From Eledone cirrhosa (Eukaryota): DNA of 64,000 bases. Made by a program: the position numbers and the translations under genes. Below are positions 21,643 through 22,440 of this stretch, piece by piece (position 1 is the first letter of the stretch; each line of letters begins with the position of its first letter). The notes beneath the pieces were generated by a model. It saw nothing but the letters and a program-made list of their open reading frames with translations, was not told where the DNA came from and did not search any database. The DNA lies in NCBI GenBank assembly GCA_964016885.1, contig OZ024742.1, positions 282,720,001 to 282,784,000 on the forward strand, written 5' to 3'.

Positions 21643-21728
<86 letters not shown>

Positions 21729-21867
21729 ATATTAAATAAATGGAAACTATGTTTATAAAACCATATTTATTTTATTATATATATTTCAAGGGTACCAAGA
21801 CAACATTGGAAATTCACTGGATAGTGAATTTCCAACCGATAAGGTATGATTTTCATGGGTATGTCTC

Positions 21868-21969
21868 TATTTATAAAACAAACTTTGTATTTTATCTGAT
21901 GAAAGCGTACCAATATTGTCTTGGTACCCTTGAAATATATATAATAAAATAAATATGGTTTTATAAATA
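21868..21969 (+). ncRNA. Type I hammerhead ribozyme, family A, complete core with extended stem I
   Basis: Stem I TATTTTAT (21888-95) / ATAAAATA (21944-51); CTGATGA 21896-21902; stem II AAGCGTACCAA/TTGGTACCCTT; GAAA 21932-35; palindromic TATATA stem III; AUA cleavage after 21943; distal stem TATTTATAAAAC/GTTTTATAAATA beyond an internal loop. Confidence 0.85.
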
Positions 21970-21979
21970 TAGTTTTCAT

Positions 21980-22323
21980 GGAGGCACATGGTTTAGTGGT
22001 TAGAGCATTGACCTTGCAATCGAAAGGTTGTGAGTTCAATTCTCAGACCAGGTGATGTGTTGTTTCCTTGAGCAAGACACTTTATTTCACATTGCTCCAG
22101 TTTACTCAGCTGTAGAAATGAGATGATAGGGACTGGGGTCCATATCATTCTACTGCAAAGTGGACGTGTAGGCGCTACGGCAAAAAAGCACCCAGCACTC
22201 ACTGTAAATGAGGTTGGTGTTAGGAAGGGCATCCAGCTGTAGAAATCAAGCCAGAATCAGTTACCGTCCCACCCTTGCAAGCAGGGAAAAGCGGACGTAA
22301 AATGATGATGATGATGATGATGA
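21980..22323 (+). mobile_element. tRNA-derived SINE, tail type 1, inserted into the family A element
   Basis: Near-identical to 15610-15945. Family A sequence resumes at 22324 (TTATTTAAAATCATT). Confidence 0.9.
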
Positions 22324-22440
22324 TTTATTTAAAATCATTAAATATTTACTCCAGTAAATTGTTGAGTGCTCTAAATCAGTTATAAACATTTATTTTTGTC
22401 GGACTTCCAACAAATTAAATACCACTTCTACTTATATATA

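What the first reader, a model, noticed from the sequence alone, without database searches (positions are those of the whole stretch)
21724..22390. Family A: full hammerhead plus inverted partial copy, interrupted by a SINE
Seen: 70-bp inverted arms (21740-21809 and 21910-21979). The left arm is the antisense of the ribozyme 3' half and stops within stem II. The right arm is split by the SINE at 21980-22323 and resumes at 22324. Three copies (6.8, 21.9, 27.4 kb) keep stem II pairing with different loops (TATTGTC versus A). Established: partial inverted pseudo-LTRs are a hallmark of Penelope-like insertions. The nesting shows the SINE is younger.
Basis: partly seen in the sequence, partly recalled or inferred. 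Interest (0 to 1): 0.7.

Follow-up and report, generated by a model that had tools for sequence, protein, structure and literature searches.

The report
Two-armed Penelope ribozyme relic, SINE-split
This is a small mirror-image leftover of a repeat that carries a predicted self-cutting RNA, likely pasted into a TA repeat by a Penelope-type jumping gene and later split by another short jumping element; it is a tidy example of a known pattern.

Summary
The arms 21740-21809 and 21910-21979 are real (70 nt, 96%). The right arm lies in a type I hammerhead fold with intact core, a palindromic 8-nt stem III and a predicted cut after 21943, and a SINE splits the family's 3' end. Corrections: the 27.4-kb loop is AATT, not A; the 6.8-kb stem II is only partly paired; the arm resumes at 22325.

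(1) The element runs on for a 92-nt one-sided tail to a second (TA)n at 22433. (2) That tail holds a bulged hairpin like those in published Hydra-clade Penelope consensi. (3) The arms meet in a perfect 13-bp palindrome, and the left arm lacks 78 nt between two CCAA words.

Head-to-head arms, junction palindrome, one-sided tail, (TA)n target and hammerhead are all published Penelope-like (PLE) features. No PLE protein gene was found, so autonomous versus non-autonomous is open, and cleavage is untested. This scan noted the same layout and hairpin before, on other DNA of this genome; family A itself was not among those notes. New member of a known kind; interest 0.25.

The parts
21643..21723 (.). 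(TA)n target, left part
   Evidence: sequence
21724..21809 (-). Left (short-ended) arm: inverted copy of the family from stem II (21910) to the short 3' end (22340), without the SINE
21806..21835 (.). Junction palindrome, 13 bp perfect, 4-nt loop; its CCAA (21832-21835) equals the CCAA of stem II (21910-21913); the left arm lacks the 78 nt between them
   Evidence: 0 of 300 shuffles reach 13 bp; z -6.4
21823..21867 (+). 5' part of the direct copy, homologous to the start of the 6.8-kb copy
   Evidence: 0 of 1000 shuffles
21868..21969 (+). Predicted type I hammerhead with extended stem I (21868-21879/21958-21969 and 21888-21895/21944-21951)
21896..21902 (+). CUGAUGA core
   Evidence: invariant in 3 of 3 copies
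21903..21931 (+). Stem II: 3 pairs, C-C mismatch (21906/21928), 7 pairs, variable 7-nt loop (21914-21920)
   Evidence: indels in reads cluster at 21914-21921
21932..21943 (+). GAAA, palindromic 8-nt stem III (21935-21942), AUA triplet; predicted cut between 21943 and 21944
21980..22324 (+). SINE: tRNA-like head, LINE-like 3' half, (GAT)n end
   Evidence: 93.5% to a full copy at 15610-15945; weak tRNA match 21989-22046, 17 bits, below threshold; 3' half matches the LINE end at 31812-32032
22325..22340 (+). Family A resumes; 22340 is the short end shared with the left arm and approximately with the two other copies
22341..22432 (+). One-sided 92-nt tail to the long end
   Evidence: repeat-level depth in 3 of 4 runs laid, 433 of 447 raw reads at 22340 carry the left arm's G
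22348..22370 (+). Bulged hairpin of Hydra-clade type, 7 nt behind the short end
   Evidence: 0 of 5000 shuffles; compared by eye with File S7 of PMC8557442; unremarkable folding energy alone (z +0.3)
22433..22447 (.). (TA)n target, right part
6729..6901 (+). Second family A copy, single and direct, between TA runs
27411..27535 (+). Third family A copy, single and direct, ends in TA; 27366-27410 upstream is of unclear origin

Best explanation
The locus is a 364-bp head-to-head pair of fragments of one repeat family, carrying a predicted type I hammerhead ribozyme, lying in a TA microsatellite and split by a SINE; it was likely written there in one event by the reverse transcriptase/GIY-YIG protein of a Penelope-like element, probably of the Hydra clade. 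Shown: the two arms, their two different outer ends (22340 and 22432), the junction palindrome, the 78-nt gap, the TA flanks and the nesting. Inferred steps: (1) the protein binds the RNA near the bulged tail hairpin and cuts both strands of (TA)n; (2) it starts cDNA at two internal sites 92 nt apart, one on each DNA end, so only one arm carries the tail; (3) both cDNAs pass the ribozyme cut site, so the template was uncleaved or re-ligated; (4) the arms are joined head to head through a fold-back at 21819-21822, and the left arm loses 78 nt between two CCAA words, by a jump during synthesis or a later deletion; (5) a LINE enzyme later inserts the SINE. The ribozyme is predicted to be weak alone (2-bp stem III) and to cut as a dimer through its palindrome or with protein help. 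In a transcript entering from the left, the antisense arm would lock it in a 70-bp duplex.
For: Every structural trait is reported for PLEs: inverted 5'-truncated copy and a tail at one end (PMC8557442); head-to-head arms with junction palindromes and microhomology deletions (PMC3846280); both strands cut and extended, with the tail lying between two internal RT starts, and uncleaved RNA as main template (PMC11167929); hammerheads with a small palindromic helix III (PMC4209133); (TA)n targets and hammerheads in the Hydra clade. Here: 3 of 4 family 3' ends in the window stop at or near the short end and 1 of 4 runs on. The tail is repeated elsewhere in the organism and joined to 22325-22340. 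Its hairpin is not chance, and five other fold-backs in the window carry a like hairpin 3, 5, 5, 7 and 24 nt behind the end of their inverted repeat, with tails of 65-77 nt. The tail also aligns with one of them (0 of 2000 shuffles). Duplex of the whole left part: -119 kcal/mol.
Against: No PLE protein gene: no GIY-YIG hit among 106 of 198 complex reading frames scanned; the three RVT_1 hits look LINE-like. The tail is 92 nt against the 30-40 bp described. Family A matches no consensus in the Craig supplement by four short words, and its 8-nt stem III and C-C mismatch differ from the Hydra hammerheads listed there (9-10 nt). Pair 10.1-11.1 is A-U or G-U, not the usual G-C. No Rfam hammerhead hit. 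The hairpin descriptor was written after I had seen both the Hydra consensi and this tail, so its shuffle test is partly post hoc. The link from tail to ribozyme in other copies is indirect. Only one two-armed family A copy was seen.
Confidence: 0.8

Rival explanations
1. One ordinary single-armed insertion, with the inverted arm made afterwards by host repair (fold-back synthesis at a break in the TA repeat, snap-back microhomology joining).
For: A short inverted repeat spanning a junction with microhomology is what snap-back SD-MMEJ leaves (PMC2943611). The two other copies are single-armed.
Against: The left arm ends at the same short end as independent copies and abuts TA, which a random repair copy need not do. 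Five other fold-backs in the window show the same short-arm, long-arm layout.
Confidence: 0.12
2. Variant of the best reading: the template was a small non-coding circular or tandem retrozyme unit moved in trans, not the 3' end of a coding PLE.
For: The 6.8-kb and 21.9-kb copies begin at about the same place. No coding sequence flanks any of three copies. Retrozymes are proposed to be non-autonomous PLE derivatives, often as solo monomers (10.64898/2026.07.22.740005). Earlier scan notes report such families in this genome (unchecked).
Against: 0 of 3 loci are tandem. No significant overlap between tail end and 5' start (472 and 210 of 1000 shuffles). Read depth falls steeply upstream of about 21850, as expected for 5' truncation or divergence.
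Confidence: 0.35
3. Variant on the junction: the insertion was a perfect palindrome centred at 21819-21822, and 78 nt were deleted from the left arm later, between the two CCAA words.
For: The other fold-backs in the window are centre-symmetric. Microhomology deletions are reported in Penelope copies. Long palindromes are deletion-prone (own knowledge).
Against: None decisive; the sequence is the same under both routes.
Confidence: 0.45
4. A MITE or fold-back DNA transposon with TIRs and a TA target duplication; the hammerhead is incidental.
For: Inverted arms and TA flanks. Another fold-back family in the window (27.2, 37.5, 51.3 kb) is amplified as a unit.
Against: Asymmetric ends; 2 of 3 loci have no inverted arm; invariant core; depth over the spacer bin 21817-21847 is far below the ribozyme bin 21879-21909 (277 against 2783 raw reads; confounded by a restriction site and the 80% cut-off).
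Confidence: 0.03

Closest known systems
PLE insertions with inverted pseudo-LTR, junction palindrome and one-sided tail (Adineta Pen2a/Pen3a, PMC3846280, passages; PMC8557442 Fig. 2 legend, passages)
   Same: Head-to-head arms, inverted arm shorter, palindrome at the junction, tail on one arm, microhomology deletion
   Different: No reading frame here; tail 92 nt against 30-40 bp; target duplication cannot be read in (TA)n
Hydra clade of C-terminal EN+ PLEs (PMC8557442, section 11 and supplementary Files S1, S2, S7 in part)
   Same: (TA)n target, hammerhead near the 3' end, bulged RCTC/GAGY hairpin behind it (seen by eye in 3 of 6 new consensi: Hydra-2_Amil, Hydra-1_Ajap twice, Hydra-2_Ajap; the 3' end of Hydra-1_Crog was not seen)
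   Different: No protein to place; 8-nt stem III and C-C mismatch are not in the listed Hydra hammerheads; not the Hydra-1_Obim family (different hammerhead). The hairpin is not mentioned in the paper's main text (0 occurrences of 'hairpin')
PLE hammerheads with small palindromic helix III (PMC4209133, parts 1-2 of 4 read)
   Same: Type I, long helix II with an irregularity, palindromic helix III, mostly solo or opposite-strand copies
   Different: 8-bp helix I extended by 12 bp; A-U or G-U at 10.1-11.1; no extra base after A9
Poseidon_Ac internal initiation (PMC11167929, parts 1-2 of 4 read)
   Same: Two ends that bracket a tail; copies that run through the ribozyme cut site; AT-rich target
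   Different: Shown there in vitro, only inferred here; different clade and tail length
Metazoan non-LTR retrozymes (PMC7229834, passages; 10.64898/2026.07.22.740005, part 1 of 5 and passages)
   Same: Short, low-GC, non-coding, type I hammerhead
   Different: No tandem units seen; no RNA evidence

Membership tests
Type I hammerhead ribozyme | Core CUGANGA, GAAA and NUH in a three-helix junction closed by stem I | tested here: met
   the constrained fold is 3.3 kcal/mol above the MFE at 21.9 kb, 4.6 at 27.4 kb and 8.6 at 6.8 kb
Type I hammerhead ribozyme | Match to a curated Rfam hammerhead model | tested here: not met
   no hit, so these models do not cover this variant or it is too divergent
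Type I hammerhead ribozyme | Compensatory changes across copies | tested here: inconclusive
   1 of 32 pairs changes on both sides in 3 sequences; 154 of 500 shuffles reach that
Type I hammerhead ribozyme | Site-specific self-cleavage | not testable with these tools
   needs an assay
Penelope-like elements | Reading frame with PLE-type RT and GIY-YIG endonuclease | tested here: inconclusive
   none at the three loci; 106 of 198 frames scanned; no genome held
Penelope-like elements | Inverted 5'-truncated copy adjoining the direct copy, with junction palindrome | tested here: met
Penelope-like elements | Tail on one end only | tested here: met
   22341-22432; longer than the 30-40 bp described
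Penelope-like elements | Hammerhead in the terminal repeat | tested here: met
Hydra clade | RT and EN motifs (RWK, DKT, CxCX5C, no CCHH) | not testable with these tools
   no protein available
Hydra clade | (TA)n insertion preference | tested here: met
   3 of 3 loci end in TA; shared with Naiad, so not specific
Hydra clade | Hammerhead form as listed in File S2 | tested here: inconclusive
   by-eye comparison: core alike, stem III shorter, C-C mismatch absent from the list
Non-LTR retrozymes | Tandem 150-450 bp units, each with a hammerhead | tested here: not met
   0 of 3 loci in this window; the rest of the genome was not searchable
Non-LTR retrozymes | Linear and circular monomer RNA | not testable with these tools
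   no suitable RNA run
MITE / TIR element | Symmetrical terminal inverted repeats shared by all copies | tested here: not met
tRNA-derived SINE (the insert) | tRNA-like head with A and B boxes | tested here: inconclusive
   box-like words seen by eye; Rfam tRNA 17 bits, below the 29-bit threshold; ARAGORN none
tRNA-derived SINE (the insert) | Dispersed copies and LINE-derived 3' end with simple-repeat tail | tested here: met

The most novel reading that the evidence does not exclude
The locus is a single-molecule record of Hydra-type PLE integration. One enzyme copied one uncleaved ribozyme RNA from two hairpin-defined starts 92 nt apart, jumped 78 nt across the folded ribozyme by a 4-nt microhomology, and closed the arms by self-priming. 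The tail hairpin would be a portable signal by which unrelated non-coding hammerhead families borrow the same enzyme.
Probability: 0.2. Interest if true: 0.55.

Novelty: new member of a known kind. Interest (0 to 1): 0.25.

Why it matters
How PLEs make inverted ends and one-sided tails is still open; PMC8557442 names it as the next task. This locus adds one clean junction with exact coordinates, and one more family in which the short end sits a few bases before a conserved bulged hairpin, a testable candidate for the start signal. By itself it is one decayed repeat among very many and changes no general picture.

Tried and rejected
No genome is held, so no consensus and no upstream extension. 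Two pattern scans of metagenome contigs and one of viral contigs found 0 matches. No RNA holder listed among the runs; this says nothing on expression, and the guessed RNA run X15 gave only 12 short pieces. The piles of read ends at 21827, 21917, 22038/22041 and 22413/22416 lie at or beside AATT words in a reduced-representation library; I read them as restriction ends, not element ends (the pile at 22279 was not examined). A second, closer read-laying without the SINE gave no result, so loose ends at the family's borders were not seen. One search showed 40 variant rows and hid 78; none of the 40 lies in the core, which is weak support only. A terminal redundancy around TTCCAAC (22405 against 21830 and 6734) is not significant. 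Sequence upstream of the 27.4-kb copy as an inverted tail piece is borderline (25 of 1000, one of four tests) and not relied on. A by-eye likeness of 21849-21863 to the 5' start of Hydra-1_Obim was noted; the motif occurs only in the two family copies, which shows family conservation, not kinship with that element. The three arm differences show no one-strand A-to-G pattern. Seven paper searches were answered; none listed a paper on this family or on the tail hairpin, but subscription journals and Repbase are not covered, and the bioRxiv supplements were not seen.

Full report
Observation. BLAST and a profile search find three direct copies of the family (about 6729-6901, 21823-21979, 27411-27535) and one inverted piece (21724-21809), nothing more. 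No genome is held. That the host is a cephalopod comes from earlier scan notes and was not tested here.

The ribozyme. On the + strand the core CUGAUGA is at 21896-21902. Stem II (21903-21931) has three pairs, a C-C mismatch, seven pairs and a 7-nt loop. GAAA at 21932 leads into the 8-nt palindrome 21935-21942, and the AUA triplet puts the predicted cut after 21943. Stem I has 8 pairs and, after an internal loop, 12 more. The descriptor finds 4 loci in the window against 0.07 in shuffles. The core is invariant in 3 of 3 copies. Covariation cannot be shown with three sequences, and Rfam gives no hammerhead hit. In public reads laid at 80% likeness, the listed indels cluster in loop II. Stem III can form only two pairs within one molecule, but eight between two. 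Hammerheads of this kind are described in PLEs, are thought to work as dimers and cut poorly in vitro (PMC4209133, parts 1-2 of 4); the Anolis one needs protein (PMC11167929, parts 1-2 of 4). Activity here is predicted, not shown.

The SINE. 21980-22324 is 93.5% alike to a full copy at 15610-15945 and has many partial relatives. Its head is weakly tRNA-like. Its 3' half matches the end of a LINE at 31812-32032 (94% over 111 nt, 83% over 60 nt), which also ends in (GAT)n. The left arm's tip matches 22325-22340 at 14 of 16 positions (0 of 1000 shuffles), so the SINE entered after the arms were made. This dates one copy, not the families.

The left arm and the two solo copies stop at or near the position of 22340 and pass into TA. 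The right arm goes on for 92 nt to a TA run at 22433. This stretch is repeated in the organism: in run X21, 788 and 743 reads deep over 22344-22405 against 24 over 22499-22520, and 433 of 447 reads at 22340 carry the G that ends the left arm (X1 and X4 agree, X15 has almost nothing). The last bin, 22406-22436, may include reads of other families. The whole insertion is therefore 21724-22432, 364 bp without the SINE, inside one TA repeat.

The tail hairpin. Earlier scan notes on other parts of this genome pointed to a bulged hairpin behind the ends of Hydra-type elements. I checked this in File S7 of PMC8557442, by eye: an RCTC/GAGY stem with a 2-nt 3' bulge stands behind the hammerhead in Hydra-2_Amil and Hydra-2_Ajap and twice at the start of Hydra-1_Ajap. 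The same form lies at 22348-22370, 7 nt behind the short end. A descriptor finds it in 0 of 5000 shuffles of the tail (2 of 5000 when relaxed), and at 6 places in the window against 0.07 in 30 shuffles. The descriptor was written knowing both sources, and the hairpin's energy alone is unremarkable. Five other fold-backs that I measured carry it 3, 5, 5, 7 and 24 nt behind the inverted repeat, with tails of 65-77 nt; the other four strict or related hits (27890, 51134, 56444 and relaxed ones) were viewed or listed but not measured.

The junction. 21806-21818 is the exact reverse complement of 21823-21835 (13 bp; 0 of 300 shuffles). 21823-21865 belongs to the family, as it aligns with the start of the 6.8-kb copy (0 of 1000). 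The left arm is thus a mirror of the direct copy from the centre outward, with 78 nt missing between CCAA 21832-21835 and CCAA 21910-21913. The gap removes the 5' strand of stem I and the CUGAUGA box. A jump during cDNA synthesis, snap-back repair synthesis (PMC2943611, passages) and a later deletion all give this sequence, and I cannot tell them apart.

Comparison. Inverted 5'-truncated copies and a tail at one end are standard for PLEs (PMC8557442, passages). Head-to-head arms with junction palindromes, and microhomology deletions, are described for Adineta Penelopes (PMC3846280, passages). The Anolis enzyme cuts and extends both strands and starts at two internal sites that bracket the tail. 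Hydra-clade elements insert into (TA)n and carry hammerheads. So the locus works like a PLE insertion in every non-coding respect. Membership by protein could not be tested: no GIY-YIG hit among 106 of 198 frames scanned. It fails the retrozyme test of tandem units within this window, but solo monomers exist in such families, so that reading stays open.

Verdict. Real, correctly read as a PLE-type footprint, and of a known kind. Confidence 0.8 that a PLE enzyme made the two arms; about 0.6 that it was a Hydra-type enzyme. The additions are the full extent, the tail with its hairpin and the resolved junction. Interest 0.25.

Noticed in passing
window 31812-33700 (-): 3' part of a LINE with an open RT + PHD frame (RTE-like by my recall, no tree built). 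Its end shares the 3' half and (GAT)n tail of the SINE at 21980-22324: probable partner LINE. An inverted piece of the same end lies at 33725-33908.
   Followed up: partly
window 27141-27340, 37426-37635 (-), 51059-51213 (-), 51248-51442, 27879-27965: A fold-back family (about 120-bp palindrome holding what looks like a hammerhead 3' half, then the bulged hairpin and a 75-77-nt tail), copied as a whole unit into TA repeats.
   Followed up: partly
window 42144-42290: Small fold-back between CA repeats, with what looks like a hammerhead 3' half; its tail aligns with the family A tail over 40 columns (0 of 2000 shuffles).
   Followed up: partly
window 60350-60548 (-); 56444-56467: Further elements with the bulged hairpin; the first is a fold-back with a 67-nt one-sided tail.
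   Followed up: partly
window 39550-39605: A separate compact type I hammerhead (CUGACGA core, palindromic CUAG stem III), single in the window.
   Followed up: no
window 58104-58369: Near-perfect inverted pair around a microsatellite; each half holds a hammerhead-like CUGAAGA...GAAAC motif pointing inward that failed my stem descriptor.
   Followed up: no
window 23915 and 54368: Core-like words without stems passing the descriptor.
   Followed up: no
window 22472-23414 (-): Broken LINE-type RT fragment directly beside the right TA flank.
   Followed up: no
window 27366-27410: Two short chained palindromes at the 5' junction of the 27.4-kb copy, possibly snap-back filler or an inverted tail piece (borderline score).
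   Followed up: partly
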